A DNA stretch of 64,000 nt from Strigamia acuminata. Lineage: Eukaryota. The stretch covers positions 19,158,001-19,222,000 of the forward strand of contig OX442314.1 of the NCBI GenBank assembly GCA_949358305.1, written 5' to 3'. The position numbers and the translations under genes are program-made. Positions 16,825 through 53,310 of the stretch are shown one piece after another; position 1 is the stretch's first letter; each line of letters opens with the position of its first letter. The notes beneath the pieces were generated by a model that worked only from the letters and a program-made list of their open reading frames with translations, was not told the origin of the DNA and did not search any database.

Positions 16825-16842
16825 ATCTCGGTGGGACCTCCA
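16825..16842 (-). promoter_or_regulatory. E1 primer-binding site, tRNA-Gln
   Basis: TGGAGGTCCCACCGAGAT (minus), 2 nt from the 5' LTR; complementary to the 3' 18 nt of metazoan tRNA-Gln (recalled sequence). Confidence 0.9.
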
Positions 16843-16844
16843 CG

Positions 16845-24454: not shown

Positions 24455-26445
24455 TGTGACGGTGACGACCACAACTCCTATCGCATGATAGTACCGGGTA
24501 TAAGTCGCGCAAATAGTGAATAAAATACGAGATAATAAAGACAACAGAGTTTCTCAAAACGTGACATTTATTGGTTTTATCCAATACAATCAATTACTAA
24601 AGTTATACAAATTCTAATGCCGACATTTGGCAAGTTAATTTACAAGTTAAACTATACAAATAAATCGGCCAAATGGCCCTAAAATAATAACATTACGGTT
24701 ATTGGTGATCCGGGGTTCGGGAACGGCAAAACGCCCGCTCGACCGAGTTAAAGATGTCATCTACGCGTAGCCGGGCTGGCTGTGTCCTCGCGGCTTCCGT
24801 CGGCGCTCCGTAATCGTGAAACTGGTTCCTTCGCGTTCCTTCGCGTTCCAGGTTCGTATATCGTGTAATGGTCCGTGTAATGCTTCTTGGTTCGATCCGA
24901 GAGGTGCGGTTGACTTTTAACTGCACCGCCACAACTAGGGTTGGAAATTGGTAATGAATAAATGAAGTCATTTATTCTTCAAGGTTCCACTTCTGAATTA
25001 TAATTAATTCGGGATGTTGTGAGTTTAATAAATTGGCAGTGGCTACGTTCATGTCCGACATGAACGTATTATTTTCATGACGCGCTGTGATTGGCTGAGA
25101 TCTATTCATGTCGGTTCGTTTCCTCAACGTAATTTTTCTCAAATTCAATGTTTTCGAGGTTTTAGCTTCTTTTTTTCTTACAAGGGGGGTCGTAGCCCCC
25201 CCTTGACCCCCCCAGACCTAACCTTATCCGTTTTTAGCAAAGTTGACAAAATGAGGATTTTTATCAATGTATTTCAATGCATCTCTCAACCAATCACAGC
25301 GCGTCATGAAAATAATACGTTCACGTCGGACATGAACGTAGCCACTTCGTAATAAATTAACTCAATAAATTGTATTCAATTTATTGTTACGAATTTGATT
25401 CGTCATATGGTGAAACAAGTCTCGTGACTTGCTTCGATTGTTAACTTGTTGCCAAGTTTAAACAATTAATGTTTATTATCAACTACAAAATAAATTAGGG
25501 TTAAAACATCGCAACACACAATTGCCGTCAAAGTTCGCCTTGCTGAGCAGAACAGTATCGCGCGTGCCCTAAATAACAGTGCGGTGAGAGACGGCACTGG
25601 TATTCAGGGGGATATAGCCCGCAGTTCTGCACAACAGAATTAATCACCCGAGATACTACTCATAAGTAGACTGCTTTGGCACCATCACCGAAGAGATATA
25701 ACATTCCCAAACACATAGTGCTACTGGCGGTAACTGCATGTTTTGCATGCAGACTGCTTTGGCACCATCAGGTGATGGAGACAATCTCTTGCAGTAACAG
25801 TGCTACTGACGGTTACTAAATACTTTGGTATCACACGTGATTCTATTGTCCGACCACGAGGATACTTATGCGGGAGGCTTTCTCCTCGGCAAGACCGTTT
25901 GACGGAAACATGAATAGTCCGAACTTCGCCTTCAGTTGACGGGGGTTGCATGGCTCAGCAGAGCCATGCTATGCATGGTCCGGTAGGACCATGCCCTGAG
26001 TAAGAAACAGTTATTTGACATGCGGAACATACCAAATAACCAGAAATCAAGAACTAACTTAACTTCCTGTTGTCAGGGAGTTTTATACTCGGTGGGATTA
26101 GGTTCCACCAATCTCGTATCGCAGGAAGTGGATACGGAGATGCAAATTGGGATTATGCTAATCTTTTAGCATAAACCGGAACTGGATACCGGGGACAGGA
26201 AATGGATACACAGAACGGAAATACATTCTGAAAATGGGTTTCGTGTCGCGTACCCGTGATAAAGCAAGAATACCTGCTTTATCTTATTGAATATTGATAA
26301 TATAACTTTATATTATCGATTTAGATTACATTTATTCGTAACAAACATAATAATATGTTTGTGAACTATTTCTGCGGAGAATAGGAAGTTCGAGGTTGAA
26401 TTTGCCGCTAGTACTAGTGGCGCCATCTATTGCTAATTTGTCACA
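24455..26445 (-). repeat. E2 3' LTR (~1667 bp native plus a MITE insertion)
   Basis: Matches the split 5' LTR apart from the MITE, 10- and 11-bp indels and a few SNPs; PPT AAGGGGGATG adjacent at 26446-26455. Confidence 0.95.
25035..25349. mobile_element. Mutator-like MITE inside the E2 3' LTR
   Basis: ~65-bp TIRs (..AGTGGCTACGTTCATGTCCGAC..); 9-bp TSD TAATAAATT; absent from the other LTR. Confidence 0.92.
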
Positions 26446-26808: not shown

Positions 26809-28419
26809 TTAATCTTGACCTTTTTCGGTCTCCGTGGCGGGCTTTTGCCTATCCTTCGAAGAGGAACTTTTGCCACGTTTTTTGACGGGAAGAGGTTCTT
26901 CCGGTTGCCTGTCTATGAAGAAAGTAGTGGTCGCAACAACTTCCGTGGCGATGGGGGACTTGGATGCCTTATCATTCGATTCAGGCTGATCAGTCGATCC
27001 GTCTTCTTCATCGATCATCTTTTTGAGATCTTCATAGATGTCAATTACCGGGGGCAAAACCAGGATCCAGCCTTCGCATATTTGATTTTTCATCTCATCT
27101 GCGATTTTTCCCACAAGCAGATTCCAAAGGTGCTCCAAAATGTTGAAGCCCTCAACGCGACGTGGATTCAAGATCATTTGCATGATCCTGGTCACATATC
27201 CTACTGTGATTTGATCTGGTAGACCCGTAATCAATTGACGAGAGATTATAATTGCAAGTCGAGCTACGATGGGGTAGTAGTACTCGACCTCCCAAACGAA
27301 TAACTGTCCTATCTTGGTGTTCGGAGGAACTTGGTAAGGTTCAATTAAGAATTCGTTTGAAATTCCGTGTTCCACAACGTTTGGCATGGGGACTAATGCG
27401 GCTTCTTCCGTTTGGGTCGCATTATCTACGCAGACAATACTTGGCATTTTTTCCAAACCCATTTGTAGGCCAAGGGGCGTTCTTCGCGAATTCATAAATT
27501 CAGGATCCTCGTACACAGCTTTGTCATCGTTGGATAATAAAGCTTTACAAAGGTGGCAGGTTGCCCATTTTCGGGGTTCTGGATCGAACAACCCTTTAAT
27601 CACGAACGAAACAAACTTTGGGTTCCAGGGTTGGATTTTTAATCGTCGTTTCGTTCCGAGGCAATTCCCGCACGATGCCAAATGGCATCCGGTCCCGGAG
27701 CCGGACATCCAGCCGACCTCGAAACAGAAAGGGCACGGTATTTCGCCCTTCGCGAGCTCCAAATTGTCGTGTGGAATTCCCAATTCCAAGTCGCGATTGC
27801 AGGCGGCTTTTCGACGCAGTGCCTTTTCTTGCTTACTCGCTGCTCTTTGTTGAGCGGTCATCGGTTGTAGTTTGGGTGCTCTAGTGGACACAAACGTACG
27901 GTTTCCTCTAGCAGTATTATTTCTAGGGGTATATACTACTTCGCGTGAAGTCGTGGGTGGCGGCGAGTCGTAATGAACGTACTCTCGCTGTTTGCGTTTG
28001 TTGTCTTGGTGGCGATTTCCCTCGGGATTTCAATTCGCCTCTAATTTGACAATCTCGTCCAGACTTCTCTCATGAGAGGTCGATGAATCTTCCATTCGAC
28101 TCGTACCCGGTTTATGGATCGACTGTAAAGGATGGCTTTTGGAAAAACTGTCCTTTTTTGGTATAATAAAGGTTTCCTGGGTAACTTCCATCGCCGTTTT
28201 GGGTACAGTCGTTTTTGGGCGAATTTCCTTTGGGAGGGCATCTGGGTTGTTTCGGGCCCAGGTTAATATGTCCCATCCTTTTTGGTCGAGCACAATAGGA
28301 GTGTTTGGCGCTCCCGGGATCGTTACGATGGTCGGGTTGACCGTGGGCGTAATTTCTTCCTCTGAAGAGCTCGACTGAATCACAATTCGCCGCTTTTTAA
28401 TCGGTATCTTCTTGACCAT
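26809..28419 (-). CDS. E2 ORF3, ~536-codon accessory protein of unknown function (basic N-terminus, Cys/His cluster); one in-frame TGA
   Basis: ORFs 28030-28419 and 26809-27891 are in one frame; only the TGA at 28030-28032 separates them. Splice acceptor TTTTCTATATTTGTAG lies 4 nt before the ATG. Motif CPFC-x12-CH-x3-CGNC...CHLC. Confidence 0.75.
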
Positions 28420-29011
28420 AATTCTACAAATATAGAAAACGTCTTAGTTTTATTTGCAATACTTTTGTATGCGCGCGCCCTCTATTGAGAAAACGCGTAA
28501 CTGAATTTACGAATTTTATAATTATAATTCGTTATAACTTTATGCTTTCGTGTATTGATAATTTTATCGAACTTACGAAAATGTCCTGCTTCCTTTAGAA
28601 GCGTAGCTTGTAGAATTATAAGTGTAGTCGCCTCGACGACAACTTGGAGTTTAGAGCACGTGGCTTTCAAATCCTCCGCCGCTAATAAACGAATTCCGCT
28701 GGTCCGTATTTCTTCGAACATTCAAAGAAATTTCATGATATATATATATAACTTTATATGCATAATCATAATACCTGTATTTGCTGATTAATAGCTAACA
28801 ATGTCAACGCGTTTGACCGTGATTTTTGTTGAATTCGACGAAGTTCTTCTTCTCTCACGTGTGTGTTAGAAGACTGAATATAGAACGAATCTTTTACTCT
28901 CCACCCGGGGTCGTACTTTATCAGGTGACTTCGCGAATTTCGATTTGAATATTCAGTATCTGAATTAAAATCAATATCTTTTTAGAATATTCTTTTTATA
29001 TTTAGAGTCGT

Positions 29012-32000
29012 TTAACGACGTTCTTGAATCATCTGCACAAAATCCGTAGTATATTTTGGATTTGGTTTCGAAGTTCTTTTCGGTCTCGAGATTATCTCCG
29101 GAAGGTCAGCTGTTCGCTTCCGTTTATTTGAGTTATTACTTCGTGGGTCGATAATCTCGTCTCCATTTTCATTTGAGGTAGGAATTATTCTTTCTTCTTG
29201 TTCAAGACTTTCTTGAGGAAGTTCTTCCATATCTTTTTCAAGATTTTCACGAGGGGTTTCTTCCATATCTTGATTATCTAATTCTTGTGAATTAGATTCG
29301 TTAAATTCGGAATTTGATGACATCCAATCAGGATTTGGATGATCTTCCAGCTTTCCTTTTTTCTGACCCAGAGTCCATGTCTCAATTGGGTACGAAGGGA
29401 TATACGGGGTGAGGTTGTCCGTATTTATTGATGGTTCGATTGAATCATCTAATAATTTTCGTAAGGTGTACGCACCTCCTGTTAATACGGCCGTGATTTC
29501 CCACGGTCCGTCTCGTTTTTCCGCAAATCCTTTAGTAATACCTTTGTCTTGATTGGAAAGAATATGCATATTCTTCCAGACTAAATCACCTACTTCATAT
29601 TTGCAAATATGAAATTTATTGCGATGAATTCTGTCGTGTTTCTCGTAATTTAGTTGGATTCTACGGTGCATTTCTTGGTGTGCTCTCCGTAAAATTCCGA
29701 GTAAATTAAACACGAATTCCTCAGGGTTATTTTTATCGAATTTATTCGCATGTTGAATAATTCGCGGGTCGAAAGGTAGTGTTACAATTCTTCCCGTATT
29801 CAATAAAAATGGCGTCGATCCGGTTGCTTCGGATTTTGCCGTTCTGGATGCAAATGCAAATTCATTCAGAAATCGTGGCCAGTGAGAGGGCACGTCAGAA
29901 TAAATCGCAAGCATTATTTTGATATCTCTGTTTGCCCGTTCTGTGGGGTTGGCCTGAGCATGGTAAGGACTTATATGAGCCATTTTAATGTTATGTCTTT
30001 TACAGAAACCCTCGTAGATGGTGGATACGAACTGTTTTCCATTATCACTGATAATTTTCTTGGGGTATCCCCATCTATGTACGATATCACCCAACTTTGT
30101 TATAATTGCTTCACTTGAAGCTTTGCTTAATGGAGCTAATTCTACCCATTTGGTACATTGATCAATTCCTACTAAAATATATTTATGTTGGTATTGACCA
30201 GCAGGTTTGGGACCCATAAAGTCTAAACAAAGAACTTCCCATGGCTGTGCCATATTGTGAGGAGTATAACTCGCTCTGTGTTTGCGGTGTTGACTAGGTT
30301 TGTATTGTTGGCAATGAACACAACTACGAACATAATTACACGTGTCTTTGCTCATTTTAGGCCAATAATAGATGAGTTTCGCTCGTTCGAGCGTTTTACT
30401 CATCCCCGCGTGTCCACTTAACGGATGTCCGTGGCATGCGAACAACACTCGTCGTACTAAAGAAGGTGGAATCACCGCTTTAAATCCGTTGCCGGAATCA
30501 TTTAATTCTTCTTCAAATGTTGGTTTGAAGAAGATTAACATTTCAGAATCATTACTATTCTCATCTTCATTATCATGATTTTCTTTGAAATCTAGTTGGT
30601 AGCCTTTGATGTCTTTCATCCATCGCTTTGTTTTCTTATTTTTTCTTTGCTCAACTTCATCTAATTTTAGATGAGTTATTATTTTTCTACATTCATAATC
30701 TTTGAGCTGAGCTTCGATGATTTCTGCTCTGGTAGGAGGAACTATACTTAGTACTTCGGTTAAAGCACTAAATAAAGTTTCTGGTTCTACATGACCTTTC
30801 TCCCCCTTTTCCAAAGAATTATTTAATTTTTTGGAATAATCAAACTTTACTGACACGTTTGTTAAGAACTGACAGGGTTTTGGTTCTTCTCTACGGGTAA
30901 CTTCTTTATTTCCGTCCCATTCGGGCCAGAATTGAGTTATTTCCGTGGGTTCGATATAATCATCCTTCGGAATGTCTTCAATACTCAAAGGAGCTCTTGA
31001 AAATGCGTCTGCGACTTGATTTTGAGTACCACGACGATACTTAATTTTAAAGGCGCCGCATTGCAGTTTAATTGCCCATCGGCCAAAACGACCAGAAGGT
31101 TCTGGCGTTCCCATTAGCCATTTTAATGCTTCTGCATCTGACTCCAAGGTGAATGACGTGTATTCTATGTAGGGTCGGAAACGTTCTACAGCCCATACTA
31201 CAGCTAGACACTCTAGTTCGGGAGTAGTGTAACGTTGCTCGGCTCCTCGAAGTACGCGACTAGCGTAAGCTACGGGTCTTGGAGTTTTAATCTATTTGTC
31301 CTTGTATTTGTCAAGAAAATCCACATCTTGGCATAACACCGCTCCTAATCCTGAATGTGAAGCGTCTGTTAGAATCACAAAGGGTTCGAGCATGTTAGGC
31401 ATTAACAAAACTTGAGTTTCGTCGCATAAGATGTCTTTAATTCTTTCGAAAGCGTCTATTTGCTCTTGTCCCCAGACAAAGGTTGCTTTCTCATGCATTA
31501 TGCTAGTCAGTGGAGTAGCAATTTCACCGTGGTTAGGAATAAACTTCCTAAAGAAATTTGCCAACCCGTGAAACCTTTGAACATCTTTCGATGTTTTTGG
31601 GGTTGGAAATTTTCTTACTGACGCGATTTTGTCAGGATCCGGGGCCAATCCATTCGGGGTGATTAAGTGTCCCAGAAATTTTAGCGTAGTTCTGCCGAAC
31701 TTAGACTTTTCTTTATTTACGGACAAGTTTGCTTTGTCTAGTCGTTCTAAGACATCTTTAATGTGACCAAGATGTTGGTCCCAGGTCTGAGAAAAGATAA
31801 TTACATCGTCTAAATAGACTAATGCGTGTTTATATAACGCTTCACCCATGACTTGTTCCATTAGGGCTTGAAAGGTACAAGGCGCGTTACATAACCCAAA
31901 TGGCATACGTACAAATTGATAGTTGCCTTTCGGAGTATAGAAAGCAGTTTTCTGCTTATCTTCGTCTTCCATCTCTACTTGATAATATCCTTTTGTAAGG

Positions 32001-33379
32001 TCAAGTGAGGTGAAGTATTTTGCCTGATTAGTATTGTGCATGAGCAAATCAATACTGGGCATTTGGATTGCATTGATTTCGGTGATCGCATTTAGCCATC
32101 GGTAATCAATACATAACCTATATGTGCCATTTGGTTTGGCAACTATTACGGGATAACTTATGTAAGGTCCCGTAGATTTCTCAATGAGATTCTCTGCTTC
32201 TAGCTCTTCAACTTGTTTAGTCATAATCGCAATTTTAGCTGGATTGTACATGCGAAACGGTTGTTTTTTCCATTTCGCGTCCTTTTTAAACGTAATTTTA
32301 TGCTTAGCAAGGTTCGTACAACCAACTTTGTCCCGAAAGACGTGCTTGATTCCGGAAATTACTTCTAGTAATTTGGTCTTTTCCTCGTCGGAGCAATCAC
32401 AATCTTTCACCAACAATTCTTCCCAATTGTCGGGTGTATGAGTGACTGTTCCGTCGTCTTTTAGTGTGCGTAACCTCGCTAGACTGTCATTAAATTCGTT
32501 ATCTACGTAAGGCGCAGTCCAACCAGGTTTGTTGTCACAATCAAATACAGCTCGTGCTGGATTTAAATTAATTGTTGTACGACGCATAAAATTGTGTCCT
32601 AAAATTAGGCCACACACATTTCGGTCTAAAATGATGAAATTCATTGGAGTGAATTCTACTCCATCTGCCCATTGAACACAAAGGGTTATTTGTCCTAGCG
32701 GGATATGAGTTATACCGACGGCACAAACTTTCATATTTCGTGGACAATCTTGAATGAAGTCAGGGGAGGCACAAGTACTATCAAGTAATTGTAATCCAAT
32801 AAAACATTGGGTGGCTCCTGAATCCATTAAAGCATTGTAGGTGAGTCCACCTATTGTTATTCTCATTCGGGGGTCGTCGATACTGTTTCCCAAACGTTTG
32901 ATGTGTTCAACTACTTCAGCTCTCTTGAGCTGATGTTCTTTGACATATTTACGAAGTCTATGATGTCTAGATAATTTTGAGGAGATATCTAAATTTTCCA
33001 TCATTGCCTCCAAACTTTCGCATACTCCTCCACTAGAACTAGTGGTTTCCTCTCGAACAGGAGGATTTATAGCGTTTTCGATTATTGCATTCAAGGACTC
33101 TCGCCAAGATTCGTCCCCCTTATCCGCAGGAAAGAGGTCGTCATCGAATGATGTAAATGGATTTTCGGTCTCTTCCATCGAAAAAGGAGTGTTGGGATAA
33201 GGTTCCTTAAATACATACTTTGGATTCCTTTTCTTAGTTTTACGATTAGGTCGTTTAATTTCCTCATCTTGAATTACTAATTTATTCAGAGTTTCGTTTA
33301 GAACATTTTCTATTTCTGAGGACAATGTACTACTCTGGTTTTTTAGGGGGTTTTCGGTAACCCCCTCTATTAGTTTTTT
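29012..33379 (-). pseudogene. pol: E2 pol (PR-RT-RNaseH-IN) with one in-frame TAG in RNase H
   Basis: LMDSGA, YLDD, TDAS, HHCC/DDE and GPW motifs; TAG at 31292-31294 (DK*IKTPRPVAYAS) with the frame continuing. Confidence 0.93.
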
Positions 33380-35481
33380 GGGGCCGGTGGACCTTCAATC
33401 GCCAAAGGCGGAGTGGTTGCATTTTTTGGATCCAAAAATTTAGTGAATAAATCCGACATGGATTTTGTCATACTAGTTTGCATAGTAGTTTTGAAATCTT
33501 CAAGTTTTTGGTCCAAAGATTCAGCTGTTACCCAATTTTGTCTCTGCCGTTTAAAAAGATCAGAGGCGGGATTGGTATTGGTATTATTACCAGTACCTTG
33601 AGGCTTGTCCTGAACAAATTTTCTTTTTTGTAACAAAGGACATTCCCTCTTAAAGTGTCCTGGTTGATTGCAATGGAAACATTTTCCAGTTGCTTTCTCC
33701 GATATGGCACATACCATGTTGTTGAATCCAACATCGTTTTCAATATTGTTTGTCTCGTCAGATTCCATAGGTTCAGCTTCTGGTTCGGCGTTCAACGTCT
33801 GAGTGGATCGTATGAGTGGGCGCGAACTCCTGGCGTCTTTACCTTTTTGAGTATTTGACGGGACAGTTTCGTCCTCTTTATTGACAATAGTGTCCACACT
33901 AGCGTTTTGGGCTTCGAAAAGAGCCCTATTCTGTCGGACAAATTGAAATATGTCATTGAATGATTCTTCATAGAGACCTCTATCGATTATTCGATTGTAA
34001 CTAACTAAGTTCAAATTCTCGAGAAGAGTGGGAGCTTCATCTCTTTTTGAATAAGATCCTTGAGCTTGTTTAAATCTCAAAAGAAATGTATAAAGTGGCT
34101 CTTCTGGGCCCTGGATTAGATTTCGAAGCTTTCGGGCTCGAGTGACAGGGATCATGTCAAACTCCGCTAAAAACAACTTTTCGAAAGTTTTCCAGTCAAC
34201 AATTTTGTCGATGTTATCTGTATGCCATTCTTGGGCTATACCGGATAAATAAGTTGGTATTCCGCGTTTTACCATCTCATCCAGAGTTAAACCTTTAGCG
34301 ACAGCGACTGTTTTGGCTGTGGCTAAAAATTTAGCCACTTCGTTCTGTTTCCCATCGAAAACAGGCATATCTTGACCTTTGAAAAAGGTTTTGTTCGAAT
34401 TGTTTGCATTATTATTTTGCTGTGCATTATTCTGCATAAATTGTTGTACTTGATGTGCACAATCAGTTTGAATATTTCGCACATAGGTAAGGATGGTTCC
34501 CAAGTCGTCGGTAGAAAATCTCGCTTGAGATGAACTACCAGCGGAGGATGCCGAACCAGAATTTTGTTCAAAATTGGGCAGATTTCCCCTAGGGACCTGA
34601 TTGTCCTGGGGGATTTCTTTCCTTGGAGGAACATAATTCTCATATTGTGTATGATTGCCAGATGATACATGTTGTCCATGTGGAACACTGCTTTTATTTT
34701 GTACACGTTCTGGGGGTGTCTGATTTGAACGAGTCTTTCCCGCCGGTAAATTTTGAATAACGGGGGACGGTGAGATCGAATCGGATCTCCTTGGAGTTCG
34801 ATTTGACACTCTTTTTGACTGTGTTGGGGGGACAAACTGTCCTTTCCCCGGTGTCGGAGGGACATAATGTCTATTTCCAGGTGTCGGAGTAACATACTGT
34901 CTATGTCCCGAGTTTTGGGAGACATTTTGTCTATTCCCTGAAGTTTGGGGAATAAAACCCGAATTATTATTGTTAATCGTTCGATTAACACTATTCGATC
35001 TAGACCTTGGTTTGGCTAGATTTAAAGGACTATTAGAACTGGGTGTTCTTTGTCCAGAACTTTGTTGACTACGGGATCGGCTAAACGATGGTTCGCGTAC
35101 CATTCTATCGTTTAGCTGTGGAGTCGACACTATCCGGGCTTGATATCCCAACCTCTTTTTAGGAGAGGGAAAGTCCAGCTTACGATTCGTGGGAATCGTT
35201 TTTCGTGGGGTTCGGTGAGAAGTCCGCGAATGCCGACTTTCATTTTCCGAACCTTCATCTTCATCAGGCCTAATTCTTTGATTTCTTTTCTCAAGTACGC
35301 GTACATGATTAACCGCTTCGGTTATTGTTTTGAAATCAGCCCGATTTAGATTATAGAGTTGACAATACTCTGTCAAATCGTCCGGAATTAAATCCGTTTG
35401 GTCTTCGAGTCGGACGTAACTATTTTCCAAGTTTTCCTCCTCGACTTCTCGTTCATTCATATGAATGTTTTCGTCAGACAT
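33370..35481 (-). CDS. gag: E2 Gag with CCHC knuckle
   Basis: MPVFDGKQNEVAKFL; CFHCNQPGHFKREC; homologous to E1 Gag. Confidence 0.92.
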   Translation of the reverse strand: MSDENIHMNEREVEEENLENSYVRLEDQTDLIPDDLTEYCQLYNLNRADFKTITEAVNHVRVLEKRNQRIRPDEDEGSENESRHSRTSHRTPRKTIPTNRKLDFPSPKKRLGYQARIVSTPQLNDRMVREPSFSRSRSQQSSGQRTPSSNSPLNLAKPRSRSNSVNRTINNNNSGFIPQTSGNRQNVSQNSGHRQYVTPTPGNRHYVPPTPGKGQFVPPTQSKRVSNRTPRRSDSISPSPVIQNLPAGKTRSNQTPPERVQNKSSVPHGQHVSSGNHTQYENYVPPRKEIPQDNQVPRGNLPNFEQNSGSASSAGSSSQARFSTDDLGTILTYVRNIQTDCAHQVQQFMQNNAQQNNNANNSNKTFFKGQDMPVFDGKQNEVAKFLATAKTVAVAKGLTLDEMVKRGIPTYLSGIAQEWHTDNIDKIVDWKTFEKLFLAEFDMIPVTRARKLRNLIQGPEEPLYTFLLRFKQAQGSYSKRDEAPTLLENLNLVSYNRIIDRGLYEESFNDIFQFVRQNRALFEAQNASVDTIVNKEDETVPSNTQKGKDARSSRPLIRSTQTLNAEPEAEPMESDETNNIENDVGFNNMVCAISEKATGKCFHCNQPGHFKRECPLLQKRKFVQDKPQGTGNNTNTNPASDLFKRQRQNWVTAESLDQKLEDFKTTMQTSMTKSMSDLFTKFLDPKNATTPPLAIEGPPAPKN

Positions 35482-36267: not shown

Positions 36268-36285
36268 ATCTCGGTGGGACCTCCA
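36268..36285 (-). promoter_or_regulatory. E2 primer-binding site, tRNA-Gln
   Basis: Same 18-mer as the E1 PBS, 2 nt from the LTR. Confidence 0.9.
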
Positions 36286-36287
36286 CG

Positions 36288-36981
36288 TGTGACGGTGACG
36301 ACCACAACTCCTATCGCATGATAGTACCGGGTATAAGTCGCGCAAATAGTGAATAAAATACGAGATAATAAAGACAACAGAGTTTCTCAAAACGTGACAT
36401 TTATTGGTTTTATCCAATACAATCAATTACTAAAGTTATACAAATTCTAATGCCGACATTTGGCAAGTTAATTTACAAGTTAAACTATACAAATAAATCG
36501 GCCAAATGGCCCTAAAATAATAACATTACGGTTATTGGTGATCCGGGGTTCGGGAACGGCAAAACGCCCGCTCGACCGAGTTAAAGATGTCATCTACGCG
36601 TAGCCGGGCTGGCTGTGTCCTCGCGGCTTCCGTCGGCGCTCCGTAATCGTGAAACTGGTTCCTTCGCGTTCCTTCGCGTTCCAGGTTCGTATATCGTGTA
36701 ATGGTCCGTGTAATGCTTCTTGGTTCGATCCGAGAGGTGCGGTTGACTTTTAACTGCACCGCCACAACTAGGGTTGGAAATTGGTAATGAATAAATGAAG
36801 TCATTTATTCTTCAAGGTTCCACTTCTGAATTATAATTAATTCGGGATGTTGTGAGTTTAATAAATTAACTCAATAAATTGTATTCAATTTATTGTTACG
36901 AATTTGATTCGTCATATGGTGAAACAAGTCTCGTGACTTGCTTCGATTGTTAACTTGTTGCCAAGTTTAAACAATTAATGT
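36288..36981 (-). repeat. E2 5' LTR, PBS-proximal part
   Basis: Matches the E2 3' LTR from 24455; interrupted by E3. Confidence 0.95.
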
Positions 36982-37997
36982 TGTTGTGACCCGACTGGAC
37001 CGGGGTCAACGAAGAGTTTCTCTCGTGACCTCGTTTCGGGTGTAAGGGGAGCCGCAAGCGCGTCTCCCTTCCCTCAGTGCATTGACATCTAGTCAATGGA
37101 CAGGCGTCTGCCCTGAGGGAGTGGGGATGGCTCGTCCACCCCACCATTGGGTGATTCCGGTCACCTGTCAACCCCGCTTTGTGCAAAGGAATGTGCCTTG
37201 CACTGAGCGGGCAGAACCAACACAACCATCAAACGAGAAACACACGTAAACCCGTCGTCCTACAAGATCAGGCCCAAGTAAATATACTGGGATTGACCAA
37301 GGACAAAGGACAATTTACCGTGAGTACGTTTGGTCAGTGTCAAACTCCGCAGAGTAACCTGCGAGATAAGATTACCACACTATTTTAGCACACCAGCTAG
37401 AAATAGTAAAAACCACTCCAGTTTAGCGAGTTGTGCAGACAAACGGTCGCACAAGCCTAAACTGCAGTAAAACCACGACGAGCGTTCCCGCCGCTGTGTG
37501 ACCGCCGGGAGCCAGAAGAGTCCGCCGCTGTGTGATCGCCGGACACCACACAAAAACCTAGACAACAGCCCGAAGTAAGCCTTTTAACTAAGCATTCACT
37601 CGCGCCCGACCAGCGTGAGCCCGAAGGACCAGCCAGAGACGAGCCGAGGACGCCATATTGCCACGCCGGCCCAAGACGACACCACGTTGCCACAACGAGG
37701 ACGCCATCTTGGACACGACCGAGACAACAGACGACCTCGCCGATTCCAGCCAGCTTTCATCATACCTTTACCTTTCCATTTCCCTTCACCCATTCCGATT
37801 TACCTTTTACCTACCTTTCATATATATATATAAGATATATCTGTACATTGTCCCACAGAATAAATCTATATTATATTTTACCTTTTATATCTGTGTAATC
37901 ATTTCTTTGGGTAAACCGCTTGAGACAAAGCGGTAGTGAGTTAGTCGAATTAAGTAATCAACCCACGAGTTAGCGACGGTTAGAGTAGAGCGCGACA
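36982..37997 (+). repeat. E3 5' LTR
   Basis: TG..CA; direct repeat of 49429-50444; AATAAA at ~37859. Confidence 0.97.
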
Positions 37998-37999
37998 CG

Positions 38000-38017
38000 T
38001 GGGGGCCTGTCCGGGAT
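38000..38017 (+). promoter_or_regulatory. E3 primer-binding site, tRNA-Pro-like
   Basis: TGGGGGCCTGTCCGGGAT versus the canonical tRNA-Pro PBS TGGGGGCTCGTCCGGGAT (16/18). Confidence 0.85.
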
Positions 38018-38069
38018 CAAGTTGAATAACTGATTCTAACCTGTGATTACATCATACCCAAAGCAAGAA

Positions 38070-41000
38070 ATGGCAGATAATACCCGAGTAACAGATTCCG
38101 ACTCCGACGCAAACAAGAGAGCCGGCAGTCGTAAAGGCGCCGACTATCACTTGCGATCTGGAGGTCCCTTACCCAAAGCCTCAGCGCACGAAGCGAGGCA
38201 AAAACGGCGTAAGCCTAAACCCGATCGTAGAAGCGCATCAGAGGCATCGCACCCGTCTCGCGCCGAGACGAGGCAGCGATTGGACGAGACAGAGCGGGGT
38301 GAAGAGCAATCTCACTCCAAACTGCCGCGTTCTAACCGTGACGGCGAGACGAGCGGAAACGAGGTTTTATCCCGTAACCAATCGCCTCGTCTAACGCACG
38401 ACACCGAGGTGGGCAGTCCGAAAGCAGCGTCTCCGATACAAAAGACGGCCTCAAATACGACCGCTAATTCGGCACTAAACACGCCAGTTACGCACAGTCG
38501 ACCAGCCTCGGTAGTGTCTGAAGGGCACAAGTCCAACTCGTCCTCTGTCAAGCGTGTTTCAAGCCAGCCTTACAGCGTCTCGGGCACCTTGATTGATGCG
38601 ATGCAGTTGGCACAAGCGGAGGGAGTGAGATACACCCTTCCGACGGGGAAGATTACCGTGTACGAAACGTTACAAATCGTACGTGCAGCTTTAAAAGCGC
38701 ACAGTGTATCCCCACAAATCACCATTGTTGAAGGTGCACACGCTCAACAATTGGTTGATTCCGCTCAATTTGAAGCGGATGCAGAGAATGAGGCTCGACA
38801 AGCCATTCGCGAGAGACGGAGGAAGCTGGCGGAAAGAGAAGCGCAAGCTCTCGAGTACGGCAGAACCCAGCCCAATCCGACTACTCCCGAGGAGGTAGAA
38901 ATAGTTGACCGAGCCCTGAGAGCACATCGATATGCTTTCCACTCGCAACAAGAAGCAGAGCGAGCATTTATGGCCAGATTGCGACGAGATGACCCGAAAT
39001 CCGTTCGCAAACCAGAGGTCAGTTCATCCGAGCTGTCCGACGAGAGCCTAGAGGGAGACCCAAAGCGCACGCCGAAGGCCAAACCCAAACCCCAGCCGGA
39101 GAGGGCAACACCAGCTACTCCGCGCAAGAGAGATGCGTCGGCCAGAGAACAACAAACTCGGCCCCGCATGCAAGCTCTCGATTCAGCCACAAATAATGCG
39201 ATAACGCGGTTAATCAACGCTAATAATGCTAGGCGAAATGAAGAGCAAGCTCTCACAAGCCAACAGCAAGATAATCCGCAAGGGACTGAGTGGCAACAAC
39301 CAGTGCCCATCCTTAAAGACGACGAGTCGTCAAGGAGACAATCGCATGATCGCACCTCTTCGCGAGAAGAAGGCAAACGCGATGAAAGACCGAAATATTA
39401 TCACTACGGAAATAGTGATTCGTCGTCAGATGGACTGGAGTCAAATGCACCCAGTCATCACGATTCGGAGAGAGGTTCCGGAGAAAGACGAAGGGAAAGA
39501 GAACGCGATGAACGCAGGGAAAGGGAACGTGACGACCGTCGTAGGGGCCGGAAAGAGTCAAACTCTTCACGGCGCAACCCGCCACGCCGCTCACCGTCTC
39601 CCGACCCCAGCTCCGACCCCTCATCCAACGACGACAGACGAAAGGAGAAATCAAGTAATCGCCGGAAGAGATCCAACTCTCCGCGCGATAGAGAGAAACG
39701 ACGTCGATCGGAAAATAGCGACCACCGACGGGAGGAGTTTCAGGACCTTCCCCGACAAAGCGCGTTTACCGATTCGACGGGTCGGCAGTATACGATGGGA
39801 GAGCTTGGAAGAGCCCTACTCGGCTCGTTGAAGGCCGAGGGAATCGATCTGAGCAAACGAAACGATCGTAATCGTAGCACTGGCGACCGCGTAAAGAAAA
39901 AATACGCTGTCTCCCGACGTGACACCATGAGTGTTACCGGGAATATTAGGTGGCAATTTTATATTCAGAACCGTTTCGACGGGTCATGGAAAGCGGGAGA
40001 TCGCTTCCTTGACGAAGTAATTCGAATTAAGACTGCCACCAAAGCCACCGTAGGAGACATGCTCACCCACGGTATTGTCGAGCTAATGACAGGCTCGGCA
40101 CGTGAGTGGTACCAAGGATTGAAAGGCGTCAATTGGGACGACTTTTTAATGAGATTCGACCTACGCTACGGCGAGACACCCGAAGAGGTGAGCCGAAAGA
40201 TGCGAGGTCTTCGCCAGATGCCTGGTGAAACCATAATGGATTACGACATTCGCGCCAGATTGTTGTTCGAAAAGGCCCCGATGGAATTTCATGCCACGGG
40301 ATTCAACCTTTTCTTTCTCGGCGGTTTGTCGGAATACTCGCAACGGGTGCTACTTGAAGAAAGGGCACCGACAGGAGGCAGCTACGAGGAGATGAGCGCC
40401 TTCCTGTTTGAGAACACGATAGATATCGAGAAAAGATATTATTCCGCTTTACCAGAAGCGGAGAAAGCAGCAACCGCTAAACGTCTCAAGTTGAGTGCGG
40501 AAAGATATGGGGCGACAGATAAAATTATGCGCCCTACTGAATATCTTAGCGGTATAATGGAGCTGGCAGAAGCTAGCGTTGGTTTACAAATAAAAAATAA
40601 ACTGACATCCACGCTGCCTTCCAACCCTTTGGCCGCCCCTAAAAAGGCACCGACAGCGTCAGCCATGCAAGCGACACTGGAGGAGGTCAAGGAGGGGGAG
40701 GAAGCCGGACAAGATGCCGGAAAATCAGACAAAAAAGAAGAAAAAGACGATTATTCGACGGACGAAGAAATACGAAGCTATCGCGATACCTTATCAACGG
40801 GTTGCGATGAGGAAGGACCGCTAGTACATCTCATCCATCGAGATAGAGCGGTAGAAGAATTTCGCGCCAGGTTAAAACCAAATGCCGGCCGAATTCCGAA
40901 GTATTTTCGAAAAAATTACACGCCACCGTCGAAAGCAGACCCTGAAAAGAAAAAATCGACTGAAGCCCCAAGAGACAAATCAAATATTCGTTGTTTCAAG

Positions 41001-41153
41001 TGTAACCAACCGGGTCACTATTCCAATGAGTGCCCAAGAACAGCGAAAGAAGACGCTAAATTTGACGCAATAATGAAGCAGATGGCAGAGATTAAACTCG
41101 CCATGGCAAAAAACGAGTCAAAAAACGAGTCAGCGCAGGCGGCGAAGAAATAA
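38070..41153 (+). CDS. gag: E3 Gag (~1027 aa), long Arg/Ser/Glu-rich N-terminal half, CCHC knuckle
   Basis: RFDGS..FL capsid-like region; LRQMPGETIMDY; CFKCNQPGHYSNEC. Confidence 0.92.
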   Translation: MADNTRVTDSDSDANKRAGSRKGADYHLRSGGPLPKASAHEARQKRRKPKPDRRSASEASHPSRAETRQRLDETERGEEQSHSKLPRSNRDGETSGNEVLSRNQSPRLTHDTEVGSPKAASPIQKTASNTTANSALNTPVTHSRPASVVSEGHKSNSSSVKRVSSQPYSVSGTLIDAMQLAQAEGVRYTLPTGKITVYETLQIVRAALKAHSVSPQITIVEGAHAQQLVDSAQFEADAENEARQAIRERRRKLAEREAQALEYGRTQPNPTTPEEVEIVDRALRAHRYAFHSQQEAERAFMARLRRDDPKSVRKPEVSSSELSDESLEGDPKRTPKAKPKPQPERATPATPRKRDASAREQQTRPRMQALDSATNNAITRLINANNARRNEEQALTSQQQDNPQGTEWQQPVPILKDDESSRRQSHDRTSSREEGKRDERPKYYHYGNSDSSSDGLESNAPSHHDSERGSGERRRERERDERRERERDDRRRGRKESNSSRRNPPRRSPSPDPSSDPSSNDDRRKEKSSNRRKRSNSPRDREKRRRSENSDHRREEFQDLPRQSAFTDSTGRQYTMGELGRALLGSLKAEGIDLSKRNDRNRSTGDRVKKKYAVSRRDTMSVTGNIRWQFYIQNRFDGSWKAGDRFLDEVIRIKTATKATVGDMLTHGIVELMTGSAREWYQGLKGVNWDDFLMRFDLRYGETPEEVSRKMRGLRQMPGETIMDYDIRARLLFEKAPMEFHATGFNLFFLGGLSEYSQRVLLEERAPTGGSYEEMSAFLFENTIDIEKRYYSALPEAEKAATAKRLKLSAERYGATDKIMRPTEYLSGIMELAEASVGLQIKNKLTSTLPSNPLAAPKKAPTASAMQATLEEVKEGEEAGQDAGKSDKKEEKDDYSTDEEIRSYRDTLSTGCDEEGPLVHLIHRDRAVEEFRARLKPNAGRIPKYFRKNYTPPSKADPEKKKSTEAPRDKSNIRCFKCNQPGHYSNECPRTAKEDAKFDAIMKQMAEIKLAMAKNESKNESAQAAKK

Positions 41154-44100
41154 CTTCTCGACCGTCTGCGCCATTCATGAAGAAGAAGGGGTTTAACAAA
41201 GGGTTCGATAAGCCGCCACCAGTCAAAGAAATGGGTAGTGACATAGCTAACGCCCAAATTCAAGACAGGGCCAACAACGCTTTGCAGGTAATTACCGCAA
41301 ACGCTGAGGCTGAGGCGGAAGAACCGAACCTACTGCTTGAAGAATTACCTCAAGTAGTCGAAGACACAGAAGAATTTCGTGTTTTCATGTGCAACGTGGC
41401 GGTCGAATACACCAACCGCCTATGCATGTTGCCCATGACAATAGAACGTGAAAAAATTATGGGACTACTAGACTCGGGAGCAGATCGCTCGTTCGTTTCC
41501 GAAGACATAGTAGCATCATTGGGTCTCACCGATAAGATAAAAGGCGTTAATAAAAATATACGTCTAAAAACCGCCAACGGAATGGCGCGTCCAAAAGGAG
41601 TTATATTATTGACCATGGAGTGGCTCGGAGGGGTAGAACAGCACCCTTTCCTGGTCCTGCCCACATGCGACAGAATTTTTCTGTTGGGCTTAGACCTCAT
41701 GGCGTCAATGGAAATACAACCAAATCCAATAACGAAATCTTGGAATTATATCAGAAATGATAAGGAAAGACCCGCAATTGTCGTGCCACCAGCTCTTGTA
41801 AAAGAAGCGGCCGACAAGACACAGTGGGAGAAAGGCCTAAAGAAATTCGTTCAAGACTACGATTTTAAAGCATTCGTAACAGAATTGCAACGGGACAATG
41901 TAGTGGAAACACTTGTCGCCGACGCCGCTTTAGAATTAAACGAAGCGGCAGCCCTACGAAGGGTCCTACTTAAATATGAGGGGATCCTGTCGAAAAAACC
42001 GGGCCGAACGAATAGGGCTATTCACGAAATTAAATTGACGGATAATAAACCTATACGAGTTGCGTATAAGGGAATGAACCCGCAAAAACGTGAAATAGTG
42101 CAAAAAATGTGCCAAGAAATGCTAGACAGTGGCATTGTCTCCGAGGCCCAGGGAGAATACGCGACGCGGGTTGTGCTCGTGATGCGCCCGGGCTCGGACC
42201 CACGCCTATGCATTGATTACCGCCCATTAAACGCGGTGACAGAGATAGATCCCATACAGATGCCGTCTATCGAATCCATTTTGAGAGAGCTTAGCCCCTT
42301 TTCTTGGGTTACGACGATGGATCTGTCGAAGGGGTACTGGCAAGTTGAGATGAGGCCAGAGGATAAGATAAAAACAGCATTTTACTCGCCAATTGGACGG
42401 TTGATGTTCAACGTCATGCCATTTGGTTTAGTGAATGCTCCCAGTACCTTTCAGAGGCTAATCGAAAGCGTATTGGGTGATATCCTGCATCAGTTTGTAT
42501 GGGCATACCTAGATGACATAGTTATTGCCTCTAAAACATTCGAAGAGCACATTGAGCACATCGACCAAGTGCTCACCCGGCTGGCAAAAGCTGGGTTACA
42601 CGTGCATCCGGGCAAGAGCAAGTTCTGTCGAAAGGAGCTTGCCTTCCTGGGTTATCGCATTGGAGTCAATGGTTTAGCTATTGGCCCCGAAAAAATCGAT
42701 GCGATTAATCGTTTCCCACCACCCGAGGACGTTAAAGGTGTCCAACGGTTTATGGGAATGATAAACTTCTTCGGCAGGTTGCTACCGGGTCTAGCTGAAG
42801 TGGCAGCCCCAGTTACCGACCTCCTGAAGAATGAAAACGAATTTGTATGGTCAAATGAGTGCAACATCGCATTTAATGCAATAAAGAGGATGCTGACGGA
42901 AGTCGGCGTAATGCCTCTACCCGACTTAAACCGGCCGTTCATATTACACACGGACGCCAGCAGAGTTGGGTTAGGAGCGGCGTTGCTCCAAACACACGTG
43001 CGCGACGGAGTCGAACAAGACCTGCCGTGCATGTTTATAAGTCGCAAACTCCAAGGCGCTGAAAAGAATTACAATGCCACCGAGTTGGAGTGTTTGGCCG
43101 TTGTGTGGGCCATAAGGAAATTCAGAGATTATCTCGAATATACCAAATTTGTGGTCCACACAGATCATCAAGCGTTACAATGGCTGATGAAATTAAAAGA
43201 GCCAGCCGGTCGACTAGCCAGATGGCAGTTAGAACTGATGGCATGCGACTTGACCATTCAATACAAGCCCGGCAAATATAACGTCGTGGCTGACGCTCTG
43301 TCACGGGCACCAGTGTCAGATCCAATCGACGCTGACGATGATGGCGAGGATGACTCCCGCATCATTTATTGCCCTACGAGTTGTCACCGTTGGGATTTAA
43401 GGAAGATGAATGAAATTCCCACCGCGTCTCCGGCAGACGTAAAATTCTGTGGATTCTGGACGCGGTTATACCAACCAGCTGCTGACAATTACCCAAACGC
43501 AAAGAAGGAATTTAAGCTAGAGCGGAGAATAAATGACCCGCTTCTAAGCGCCTTCCACGCTCGTGTCGGCAAGCAAATGAAAAGCAATCCCCCAACAAGG
43601 GAGGAAATAATTGTGCAACAAAAATTAGACAAAAAATGTCAGGACAGAGCTAGATTCGTACTGACAGGAAGATATCCGCCCAACTTAACCAGAAGGCAGA
43701 AGCGTCGTTATGCACACGAATCCATAGATTACCTATTGGATGACGGCCTTTTAGTGAAACATCACCCAAATCACCAAGATGACTTGAGTGAATCGGACAC
43801 CGCAGTAAAGGTAGTAATACCTGCTTCCTTAATCGGTCGCGTGCTGTGGTTGTTACACGGGCACCCGCTTGCGAGCCATGCGGGAGTAAGCAGAACACTC
43901 TATCGTGCTACACAGCTTTTTCACTGGACAGGGATGAAAAAAGATATTGCTCTTTTTGTCCACCAATGTCAGCGATGTCAAGCGTGCAAGCCGAGGAGTA
44001 AATCACCATTCGAAACTATTTTCTTAGGGCCTTACGCGCCTTTTGATTGTTTAAGTGTCGATGTGATGGGCCCAAAACCCGTTACGGGAAATAAAAATGC

Positions 44101-45247
44101 GTACATTATCGTTATAATGGACGTGGCAACTCGTTGGCCCGAGTTGTACGCCGTCGCTAGACCTTCAGCAGAGAAAATCGTTGAATGTATCTACGACGTG
44201 GCGTTACGTTACGGATTTCCACGTAAAATAATATCCGATAACGGACCCCAATTTATCTCGAAAATTTGGGGTAAGTTTTGTGAGAAATTCGGGATTGTGG
44301 CGTCACATACTTCGACCTACAATCCCAGAACAAATCCCGTTGAGCGACTCAACAGGGACATTAAATATGCACTAAGCATATTCACTGACATCCACAATAG
44401 GTGGGATGAATACTTGAGGGAGATCGCGTTCAGCATACGAACAACAGTCTCGAGGACGAGAGATTTTTCTCCGGCCTACCTCAACTTCGCCCGAGAGCTA
44501 CGAGTGCCTTGGGACCCACGAGTGGCAGAGTCGGTAAATGTGGTGGACCCAGAGAAACCACATGAGTATGTGTATAAATTGGAGCAAACAATTTCGAACA
44601 CATACAAGCATATGATGGCGCACATTTTTAACATGCGCGACCGCATTTTACAAGATAAAAGCGGTGGAAAATTCGTGAATTTCGAGATCAATGATTTGGT
44701 GTGGAAAGATGCACACACCCTCTCAAATGCAGCGAGAGGAATCACCGCCAGCTTGGCCGACAAGAGAGATGGTCCATATGTGATCATCGGCAAGCATGGC
44801 GGTAACGCGTATAAATTACGTAAGCTCGAGGACAATACCGAGCATAAGTCGATACAAGTACGAGAGTTAACTCCGTACATTCCGGAATTCCCGCAAGAAA
44901 TGTGGGCCAAGGGCCAAGTCAAGTCTAAAACTGACGGCCAAATCGTCGATATGTTCGCTGGCGAGTCGGAAAAAGCACCGCCAAGTGACAACGAGGAGTA
45001 TTTCGACGCCCCTTCACCTCCGGTCAACGAGATCGTTGAATCCGTTCCGGATCCAATTTTGGTCGGGGGGGAAACAGGAGAAACTCCTGAAACAAACACA
45101 AAAAACACGGATAAAAAAGAAAACAATAATGAGGAGGTACAGACACAAAAAACAACAAAAAATATCGTACCTGCCTCGATCCGTAACCTGCGACCAAAAA
45201 GAGATAATCCGTTTATAAAAGGCGGAAAGGTCGTAGGAAAGAAGTAA
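41120..45247 (+). CDS. pol: E3 Pol (PR-RT-RNaseH-IN), -1 frame relative to gag
   Basis: LLDSGA, YLDD, HTDAS, HHCC, DDE and GPY motifs; frame open from the slippery site at 41120. Confidence 0.96.
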   Translation, partial: KKRVSAGGEEITSRPSAPFMKKKGFNKGFDKPPPVKEMGSDIANAQIQDRANNALQVITANAEAEAEEPNLLLEELPQVVEDTEEFRVFMCNVAVEYTNRLCMLPMTIEREKIMGLLDSGADRSFVSEDIVASLGLTDKIKGVNKNIRLKTANGMARPKGVILLTMEWLGGVEQHPFLVLPTCDRIFLLGLDLMASMEIQPNPITKSWNYIRNDKERPAIVVPPALVKEAADKTQWEKGLKKFVQDYDFKAFVTELQRDNVVETLVADAALELNEAAALRRVLLKYEGILSKKPGRTNRAIHEIKLTDNKPIRVAYKGMNPQKREIVQKMCQEMLDSGIVSEAQGEYATRVVLVMRPGSDPRLCIDYRPLNAVTEIDPIQMPSIESILRELSPFSWVTTMDLSKGYWQVEMRPEDKIKTAFYSPIGRLMFNVMPFGLVNAPSTFQRLIESVLGDILHQFVWAYLDDIVIASKTFEEHIEHIDQVLTRLAKAGLHVHPGKSKFCRKELAFLGYRIGVNGLAIGPEKIDAINRFPPPEDVKGVQRFMGMINFFGRLLPGLAEVAAPVTDLLKNENEFVWSNECNIAFNAIKRMLTEVGVMPLPDLNRPFILHTDASRVGLGAALLQTHVRDGVEQDLPCMFISRKLQGAEKNYNATELECLAVVWAIRKFRDYLEYTKFVVHTDHQALQWLMKLKEPAGRLARWQLELMACDLTIQYKPGKYNVVADALSRAPVSDPIDADDDGEDDSRIIYCPTSCHRWDLRKMNEIPTASPADVKFCGFWTRLYQPAADNYPNAKKEFKLERRINDPLLSAFHARVGKQMKSNPPTREEIIVQQKLDKKCQDRARFVLTGRYPPNLTRRQKRRYAHESIDYLLDDGLLVKHHPNHQDDLSESDTAVKVVIPASLIGRVLWLLHGHPLASHAGVSRTLYRATQLFHWTGMKKDIALFVHQCQRCQACKPRSKSPFETIFLGPYAPFDCLSVDVMGPKPVTGNKNAYIIVIMDVATRWPELYAVARPSAEKIVECIYDVALRYGFPRKIISDNGPQFISKIWGKFCEKFGIVASHTSTYNPRTNPVERLNRDIKYALSIFTDIHNRWDEYLREIAFSIRTTVSRTRDFSPAYLNFARELRVPWDPRVAESVNVVDPEKPHEYVYKLEQTISNTYKHMMAHIFNMRDRILQDKSGGKFVNFEINDLVWKDAHTLSNAARGITASLADKRDGPYVIIGKHGGNAYKLRKLEDNTEHKSIQVRELTPYIPEFPQEMWAKGQVKSKTDGQIVDMFAGESEKAPPSDNEEYFDAPSPPVNEIVESVPDPILVGGETGETPETNTKNTDKKENNNEEVQTQKTTKNIVPASIRNLRPKRDNPFIKGGKVVGKK

Positions 45248-46665
45248 AATAAATTACGAGTCGATGGCGGCACTAAAAATAAATTCTAATCGACCGATAG
45301 TGCAAGCCATCACGTTGCGAGACTCGAAGAAAATTCCGCTAAGTCCAACAAAGCGGATATCGGTCGAATTCACGTCACAAGATGGCGTGGAAGCGCGGGA
45401 CCCAAAGCAAAATTATCGGCACGGGTCGGATACCGCGTGCAAAAGACCCCGTAGCAGCAATCGCGCACGGGAGTGAAAACAAAGGAGACCCGTAGCGTAA
45501 CATGCGCACGGGTAGGTGCGCACTAGTCTCAAACACCCGGGTTCTGGAGTATATTACCCAGAATCCATCGCGATTACCTCGTGTTCACACGAACTTCCGC
45601 TTTTCACAGCTGATCGCTGCATTCGTGCGTGATCCTCGTTTTTAACGTTTTTATCGAGTTTTTTGAGATAGTTTTATCATCCTTTTTTCAATCGTGATTG
45701 AGCTTTTTGTGCGCGCTCCTCGCCATGGACGAGGAAGAGAACGACGTGCTGGCCATAGAGCACGAGGACGAGGAAAACTGGGACCGCGATGTAAACCAAG
45801 TCCATCCCGATCAGGTAGAAGTCGGCATCGGCACATGAGAACTAGTTCCGTGCTGCTGAAGAAGAAATTTTGTTGACTAATACCTGACATGAGTGCTTTG
45901 CACTCACAATAGCGTATAATTAATTATTAACCGCGATCGCTCACACGATCGTATTTTTTCCTTGTTAATTTGTTTTCGGGGTGCGAGCGCAGACTTCACG
46001 TCGCCTCGCGTCTCGAAAATTCCTCATGACTTGAGTCACGAGCGAGACAATGGGCTCGAGCCATAAATAATTTTATGACAAGGGGAGAATATTCTGTAAA
46101 AGAATAATTTTCTCCACAAGTAATTTGACGCATCGAATTGATGCAACTTAACATTCGTACGATGAATTTTTCGGTGTGTTGGATAAATTTAATTTGACTT
46201 TAACTTTTTTAAAAAAAAAAATTAGACAAAGTCCGACTTCGGAATAATTCTTTATTAGATTTATTTATTTAATAAAATTTCGACAAGCACATTTATTGTG
46301 CAATTTTAGTAATAATTTACACCCGACGAATTCTCTTTACGAATGACGGATAATTATTAATTTAATTATTAGTAATGTTCTAATTAACGTTAGAATTAAT
46401 GTGAAGTAAAATCTGATGATAAAAATCCGGATTAAAGGCTCGATTCCGTCTCGCTGTGCGTTTTGGACATGAGACAGATTTTTTACGTGATGACTTCTTT
46501 TTTTTCTATCCGACGAGGGACAATTCGTCCTACGTTTGCACCGATAGACAGGAATCGGTCTCGACGGACGGCTGCACGTATCGGCAACGTCCCTCGAAAC
46601 CAACCATTTATCTACGTATTTAAATATTAACTTTTTATTAATTGTTTATTTCTCCATCCTTCCAG

Positions 46666-49392: not shown

Positions 49393-49428
49393 TCGCTCAG
49401 CCCCACGGTCTGAGCTCGGAGGGGGAAG

Positions 49429-50444: not shown

Positions 50445-50448
50445 ATGT

Positions 50449-53107: not shown

Positions 53108-53310
53108 TAATTAAAATCCTTAATACCGGTAATTAAAATCATTAATTATCCCAAGCAAAGTTTGCGGATCAAGAAGTGAAAGAAAAAAAAATTTATTAAA
53201 AACTTCTGCAGTAAAGTTATCATACAAGGTAAGAGTTTATGGAATTTAGACCCAGTAGATTCTCATCCCAGTGAGAGTCCTAATAATTGTGACAATAATC
53301 TATGATTATA

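What the first reader, a model, noticed from the sequence alone, without database searches (positions are those of the whole stretch)
26809..28419. E2 carries a different ORF3 with an unrecognised Cys/His cluster
Seen: two track ORFs are one ~536-codon frame broken by a single TGA. It has a basic N-terminus (MVKKIPIKKRR), a CPFC-x12-CH-x3-CGNC...CHLC cluster, a helical C-terminal block and no TM segment. An acceptor lies just before the ATG, with a candidate Inr (TCAGTC, ~28875) and donor (~28774) upstream. No similarity to E3 ORF3 is visible. Inference: related Gypsy lineages independently fill a post-pol cargo slot with nuclear proteins, here a possibly new zinc-binding domain.
Basis: partly seen in the sequence, partly recalled or inferred. 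Interest (0 to 1): 0.8.

Follow-up and report, generated by a model that had tools for sequence, protein, structure and literature searches.

The report
Conserved zinc-cluster third gene in Gypsy
A young Gypsy-type jumping gene carries, where retroviruses keep their envelope gene, a conserved extra gene of no known family that centipede elements share; its cysteine cluster likely binds zinc, and the protein may act in the nucleus to help the element's own RNA get out.

Summary
Observation confirmed: 26809-28419 (-) is a 536-codon frame with one TGA, behind pol of a young Gypsy element. The stop is private to this copy: all 25 contigs listed at that codon, in 3 runs, read otherwise. The Cys region is under strong purifying selection (24 of 29 differences synonymous, no indel). 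The only relatives with the domain are three Strigamia (centipede) gene models that join it to Gypsy pol pieces, so ORF3 is an inherited lineage gene, not a one-off cargo. They keep three CxxC pairs plus C207/H217 and, in two models, the helical block, but not the CH dyad, which undercuts a RING reading. No TM segment; no Pfam, PDB or fold match, but the models are poor (pLDDT 37-43). The Inr and donor are at chance level; the acceptor is plausible. Homology to E3 ORF3 is not shown. Closest analogue: Cer1 CERV, a post-pol, spliced, Cys-rich nuclear RNA-export factor. Best guess, untested: a CERV/Rev-like regulator (0.35). New variant of a known kind; interest 0.45.

The parts
26809..28419 (-). 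ORF3, 536 codons, one in-frame TGA at 28030-28032 in this copy
   Evidence: stop private to this copy
27850..28419 (-). aa 1-190: basic, S/T/P-rich, predicted disordered arm with KKRR (aa 8-11); poorly conserved
   Evidence: composition
27445..27849 (-). aa 191-325: conserved domain; basic helix, then C207, H217, C229/C232, C250/C253, C288/C291, W237, W265, W285; likely binds zinc
   Evidence: conservation; selection; low-confidence model
27001..27273 (-). aa 383-473: predicted four-helix block, shared with centipede models P0005 and P0003
   Evidence: shuffle tests (0 of 2000; 6 of 2000); only generic bundle matches
28424..28440 (-). pyrimidine tract and AG splice acceptor 4 nt before the ATG (candidate)
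28420..29011 (-). pol-ORF3 spacer: candidate donor 28774, candidate Inr 28877-28872, four upstream ATGs (28769, 28763, 28736, 28721) all inside the candidate intron
   Evidence: mild folding z -1.9 and -2.7
29012..33394 (-). pol (protease, RT, RNase H, integrase), one in-frame TAG at 31292-31294 in this copy
33370..35481 (-). gag with one CCHC knuckle; overlaps pol at an A-rich site typical of a -1 frameshift (recalled)
36268..36285 (-). primer-binding site, identical in E1 (tRNA-Gln by recall, not tested)
24455..26445 (-). 3' LTR, about 1.65 kb plus an inverted-repeat insert at 25035-25349; polypurine tract adjacent
36288..51400 (-). 5' LTR, split by nested element E3 (36982-50444, + strand); 4-bp target duplication CTGT flanks E2

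Best explanation
ORF3 is a conserved, selected accessory gene in the env slot of one Gypsy lineage, likely made from a spliced subgenomic RNA, whose product likely enters the nucleus and would use a predicted zinc cluster to bind the element's own unspliced RNA and license its export, as CERV does for Cer1. Shown: the gene, its position, its constraint, the private stop, the conserved C/H set, the lack of a TM segment, and its presence behind pol in centipede elements. Inferred: splicing (acceptor before the ATG, upstream ATGs inside the candidate intron), nuclear import (basic clusters), zinc binding (eight conserved C/H would fill two sites), and the helical block as a docking surface for a host factor. 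By analogy only: RNA binding and export. This copy cannot make the full protein and also has a pol stop, so it would depend on intact siblings.
For: Selection: 24 of 29 differences synonymous, 0 stops, no indel; 12 of 32 indels were shown for the wider stretch and all 12 lie outside the frame. Homologs: three Strigamia models, each with Gypsy pol pieces N-terminal to the domain; both folded blocks align. A splice acceptor inside the genomic RNA means full-length RNA must leave with an intron, the problem CERV solves. [quoted passage not shown] E3 also has an acceptor directly before its ORF3 ATG. E1 lacks ORF3, but its integrase breaks off too and pol has two stops, so it is no case of a working element without ORF3.
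Against: No functional or RNA data. No sequence link to CERV: both hits among 1.84 billion representatives were Strigamia; Cys spacing differs (CERV C193/C195/C200/C269). Most env-slot Gypsy and simple retroviruses export RNA without such a protein (PMC10309623 section 15 names the direct NXF1 route). NES-like patterns are uninformative: 4997 of 5000 shuffled blocks have one. Inr and donor are at chance level. The models are too poor to show a nucleic-acid-binding fold. Other nuclear roles fit the same anatomy about as well.
Confidence: 0.35

Rival explanations
1. A transcription activator (like foamy-virus Tas or lentivirus Tat; both recalled) made from an internal promoter in the pol-ORF3 spacer, binding the long LTR through the zinc cluster.
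For: Candidate Inr 5' of a donor, with no ATG before the donor. A diverged subfamily shows 24 differences in 28675-28847 but apparently only one more up to 28940, the patch holding the Inr (table 8; Fisher p 3e-4, assuming the contigs of different runs are one variant). Plant Retand/Grande accessory genes are proposed regulators (PMC11963269).
Against: Inr-like hexamers occur in 2411 of 5000 shuffles; no acidic activation tract is conserved; the patch could equally be an RNA element or a recombination boundary.
Confidence: 0.22
2. An anti-silencing factor: the zinc domain acts as a degenerate RING-like adaptor or chromatin binder that blocks or removes a host silencing protein.
For: In this copy the cluster reads in C3HC4 order, matched by 0 of 10000 shuffles under a pattern I relaxed after seeing it; Atlas neighbours include RING-type clusters at 0.76-0.77, below the level the tool calls meaningful. 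Arthropod retrotransposons do capture chromatin domains (PMC6673714).
Against: The strict RING pattern fails; C245 and H246 are absent in 3 of 3 homologs, which carry a fourth CxxC instead; no RING family in Pfam. CpG observed/expected is 0.96-1.19 in elements and host DNA, so no sign of methylation to counter; piRNA or H3K9 routes stay open.
Confidence: 0.2
3. A cytoplasmic or particle protein (RNA chaperone, particle transport, cell-to-cell spread without a fusogen).
For: It sits in the env slot; non-env ORF3s with such roles are described in bdelloid rotifers (PMC5408684 abstract).
Against: No TM or signal segment; basic NLS-like clusters at both ends; no enzyme family match.
Confidence: 0.13
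4. A remodelled capture of a host gene, for example a piece of seryl-tRNA synthetase.
For: The isolated domain matches human SerRS 355-432 at E 0.38 with a visually tidy alignment.
Against: Not significant; not recovered with centipede P0002, with profiles A2 and A5, or by Pfam and NCBIfam; SerRS lacks the first and third CxxC in that alignment.
Confidence: 0.05

Closest known systems
CERV of C. elegans Cer1 (Sun et al. 2023, PMC10309623; abstract, passages, sections 4, 9, 15 read)
   Same: [quoted passage not shown]
   Different: CERV shares its N-terminal exons with Gag, has a C-x-C-x4-C...C loop and a G-protein-like domain; ORF3 has its own ATG behind an acceptor, three CxxC pairs and a helical block. 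No sequence link found; function here untested.
Non-env ORF3s of bdelloid LTR retrotransposons (PMC5408684; abstract only)
   Same: Third ORF in the env position that varies between lineages.
   Different: Those are GDSL esterases, DEDDy exonucleases or small TM proteins; none matched here.
Plant Retand/Grande accessory ORFs, TRP28 (PMC11963269; passages)
   Same: Conserved post-pol gene of unknown function, proposed nuclear regulator.
   Different: Antisense, plant-only, PF04195 not matched.
CopiaMBD of centipede and spiders (PMC6673714; passages)
   Same: Arthropod LTR element with an added domain, same centipede genome.
   Different: Copia, host-derived known domain; the MBD model P0004 touches our profile only through a 42-residue linker and looks like a chimeric gene model.
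Errantivirus env (PMC13524379; passages and supplement rows)
   Same: Same slot and likely the same spliced expression.
   Different: Env has a signal peptide, ectodomain and TM anchor; ORF3 has none.

Membership tests
Ty3/Gypsy LTR retrotransposon (the carrier) | TG...CA LTRs, target duplication, PBS/PPT, PR-RT-RH-IN order | tested here: met
Envelope glycoprotein | signal peptide and C-terminal TM anchor | tested here: not met
   hydropathy maximum 1.28, N-terminus -0.07; centipede ORF3 part 1.09; no env family in Pfam
RING-HC (C3HC4) finger | eight ligands in C3HC4 order, conserved in the family | tested here: not met
   strict pattern fails; third Cys and His absent in 3 of 3 homologs
RING-HC (C3HC4) finger | cross-brace fold | tested here: inconclusive
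   model pLDDT 43; no usable match
DnaJ-type CxxCxGxG finger | four CxxCxGxG repeats (pattern recalled) | tested here: not met
   three CxxC in E2, four in centipede models; 0 of 3 in E2 complete the GxG; no Pfam hit
CERV | non-env ORF between pol and 3' LTR | tested here: met
   PMC10309623 section 4
CERV | C-x-C-x4-C...C loop | tested here: not met
CERV | spliced mRNA sharing N-terminal exons with gag | tested here: inconclusive
   acceptor plausible, donor not identified; no run on record as RNA
CERV | G-protein-like C-terminal domain | tested here: inconclusive
   low-confidence model gives a helical bundle with generic matches, best Z 8.7, rmsd 3.5, 92 aligned
CERV | sequence homology to CERV | not tested
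   CERV sequence not obtainable from the tools; one search gave only two hits, both Strigamia
CERV | required for export of unspliced RNA | not testable with these tools
   needs knockdown and RNA localisation
Seryl-tRNA synthetase fragment | significant, family-wide similarity to the class II catalytic core | tested here: inconclusive
   E 0.38 for E2 alone; nothing

The most novel reading that the evidence does not exclude
An arthropod Gypsy lineage has evolved, independently of HIV Rev and nematode CERV, its own RNA-export or self-regulation protein built on an undescribed two-zinc domain whose ligand set has been rewired between lineages (a fourth CxxC in the centipede elements, a CH dyad here), making these elements 'complex' retrotransposons.
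Probability: 0.3. Interest if true: 0.75.

Novelty: new variant of a known kind. Interest (0 to 1): 0.45.

Why it matters
Regulatory accessory proteins are the mark of complex retroviruses, and in animal LTR retrotransposons my searches turned up one worked-out case (CERV). A strongly constrained, non-env third gene shared between this host and centipede elements points to a second such system and to an unannotated, probably zinc-binding domain that gene models currently hide inside 'RNA-directed DNA polymerase' entries. The kind (unknown ORF in the env slot) is common, and the function is not shown, which caps the score.

Tried and rejected
No genome is held for this window, so copies were seen only through run contigs. 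No RNA holder listed; no splice joint in the three contig sets: neither bears on expression. Word-based homolog search with the whole protein: 0 of 4048 candidates; with profile A2, 1 of 3990 (the chimeric MBD model) and 3 of 7991. Metagenome and viral contigs: 0 of 313 and 0 of 21 pattern matches confirmed. Pfam, NCBIfam, PHROGs: only sub-threshold hits, best Lar_restr_allev E 0.035. PDB sequence: calpain small subunit E 1.1, SerRS E 0.38, none by profile apart from integrases for the pol columns. AlphaFold2 on 3-row alignments: pLDDT 37 and 43; Foldseek 0 hits at E 0.001; VIA generic bundles for the helical block and 5 of 48161 chains at Z 2.1-2.4 for the Cys domain: none of this shows a new fold. 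ESM Atlas: best 0.77; no usable hit for the helical block. RING, DnaJ-finger, env and SerRS readings were rejected or left unsupported as listed. E2/E3 ORF3 homology: one weak pairwise match, not reproduced. Rfam: one sub-threshold microRNA-hairpin match on the inverted-repeat insert. Paper searches (listings only, except the five papers named) showed no description of this ORF3 family; subscription journals, Repbase and Dfam could not be searched.

Full report
Observation. On the minus strand, 28419-26809 is one frame of 536 codons with a single TGA at codon 130. The acceptor 4 nt before the ATG is plausible (2 of 281 YAG sites score higher, at least 9 tie). The Inr and donor are present but not above chance (2411 of 5000 shuffles; 46 of 397 GT sites), although all four upstream ATGs fall inside the candidate intron.

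The carrier. E2 is a Ty3/Gypsy element: gag with one CCHC knuckle, protease-RT-RNase H-integrase, TG...CA LTRs of about 1.65 kb, a 4-bp target duplication, PBS and PPT. It spans 24455-51400, with E3 nested in its 5' LTR. Its LTRs differ by 3 substitutions and 2 small indels, so the insertion is young, yet pol also has one internal stop. The host is not identified; no genome is held. An arthropod is inferred from the nearest relatives of the element.

Is it a gene? Three public runs of one organism (2 studies, contigs only) cover the stretch. At the stop codon all listed contigs (13, 2 and 10) read otherwise at full depth, so the stop is private to this copy or strain. Of 32 indels, 12 were shown and all 12 lie outside the frame; one low-depth variant skips about 91-93 nt in the disordered arm. 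For aa 204-300 the full table was shown: 29 differences, no indel; 24 are synonymous, 5 not, none a stop, omega about 0.07-0.09. No listed change alters a Cys or His, but C207, C288 and C291 lie near the ends of that stretch, where differences are under-listed. Over the whole ORF, the 18 best-supported differences classed (stop site left out; most rows not shown) gave 11 synonymous and 7 not, with more change in the arms.

Relatives. A full HMMER pass over 1.84 billion representatives gave 2 hits and a profile search a third; all are Strigamia maritima gene models that join Gypsy pol pieces to this domain. Their pol pieces are 53-60% identical to E2, against 65-73% for E1 and 22-43% for E3, so ORF3 is likely older than the E1/E2 split. 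The three models are close to one another and count as about one independent lineage. Conserved in all: C207, H217, C229/C232, C250/C253, C288/C291, W237, W265, W285. Not conserved: C245, H246, H289; the centipede models have a fourth CxxC nearby where E2 has none. The helical block aligns without gaps over 73 residues with P0005 (6 of 2000 shuffles) and more loosely with P0003 (0 of 2000); P0002 ends before it. The protein is thus a two-domain unit between basic, disordered arms.

What it is not. Not env (no signal or TM segment). Not a RING finger as a family, although this copy alone mimics the C3HC4 order. No Pfam, NCBIfam, PHROGs, PDB or Atlas assignment. A SerRS look-alike at E 0.38 did not repeat with the homolog or profiles. 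Structure models were poor, so the empty fold searches say nothing about novelty of fold. E2 and E3 ORF3 share one weak helical match that profiles did not confirm. E1 lacks ORF3 but is also broken in integrase and pol.

Mechanism. Shown: a selected, lineage-wide, non-membrane protein in the env slot. Inferred: spliced expression, nuclear import and zinc binding. For the job, I commit to a CERV/Rev-like role at 0.35: an element that splices its own RNA must also export the unspliced form, and the one characterised animal Gypsy protein of this anatomy that my searches found, Cer1 CERV, does that through a Cys loop (PMC10309623: abstract, passages, sections 4, 9, 15; its held supplements were strain and data tables). 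This is analogy, not homology. Rivals: transcription activator from an internal promoter (0.22), anti-silencing adaptor (0.2), particle or cytoplasmic factor (0.13), remodelled host capture (0.05).

Comparison and novelty. Unknown ORFs in the env slot are a known kind: CERV, bdelloid ORF3s (PMC5408684, abstract), plant Retand ORFs (PMC11963269, passages); added domains in centipede elements are known from CopiaMBD (PMC6673714, passages); the errantivirus survey that included Strigamia dealt with env-bearing elements (PMC13524379, passages and supplement rows). Eight paper searches listed no description of this family; repeat databases and subscription journals were out of reach. Earlier notes of this scan report other zinc-cluster ORF3s in other genomes (unchecked); none resembled this one by sequence. 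Verdict: real, conserved, unannotated accessory gene; new variant of a known kind; interest 0.45, up to 0.75 if the regulatory role holds.

Noticed in passing
window 36982-50444 (+); ORF3 46666-49392: Nested element E3 is very young (LTRs differ at 1 of 1016 sites), has open gag and pol and its own ORF3 of about 900 aa with a strong acceptor directly before the ATG, no TM segment, no CxxC cluster and no family match.
   Followed up: partly
window 7763-18434 (-): Sister element E1 (pol 65-73% identical to E2, same PBS) breaks off in the integrase C-terminus near 10050, has no ORF3 remnant and two pol stops; LTRs differ at 7 of 1590 sites. Looks like an internal-deletion derivative.
   Followed up: yes
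window 28030-28032 and 31292-31294: E2 has two coding stops although its LTRs differ by only 3 substitutions and 2 small indels; it may have been copied as an already defective, trans-mobilised element, or the assembly may hold errors.
   Followed up: partly
window 28848-28940: Apparently conserved non-coding patch in a diverged subfamily, holding the candidate Inr (table 8).
   Followed up: partly
window 27661-27744: Run contigs of 427-1041 nt fit only the Cys-cluster DNA and run on unlike, suggesting more distant ORF3-bearing subfamilies in the same organism (tables 7, 8).
   Followed up: no
window 25035-25349 and 52806-53113: Inverted-repeat (MITE-like) insert in the 3' LTR with a duplication of about 9 nt; a 70% similar copy lies at 52.8-53.1 kb.
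   Followed up: partly
whole window: No CpG depletion in elements or host DNA (observed/expected 0.96-1.19).
   Followed up: partly
window 56490-57944 (+), 6307-6918 (-): Host-like genes: an intronless LRR/F-box-like ORF and a U1/matrin-type zinc-finger ORF.
   Followed up: no
window 20544-22865, 59400-61615: Large foldback and tandem-repeat structures.
   Followed up: no
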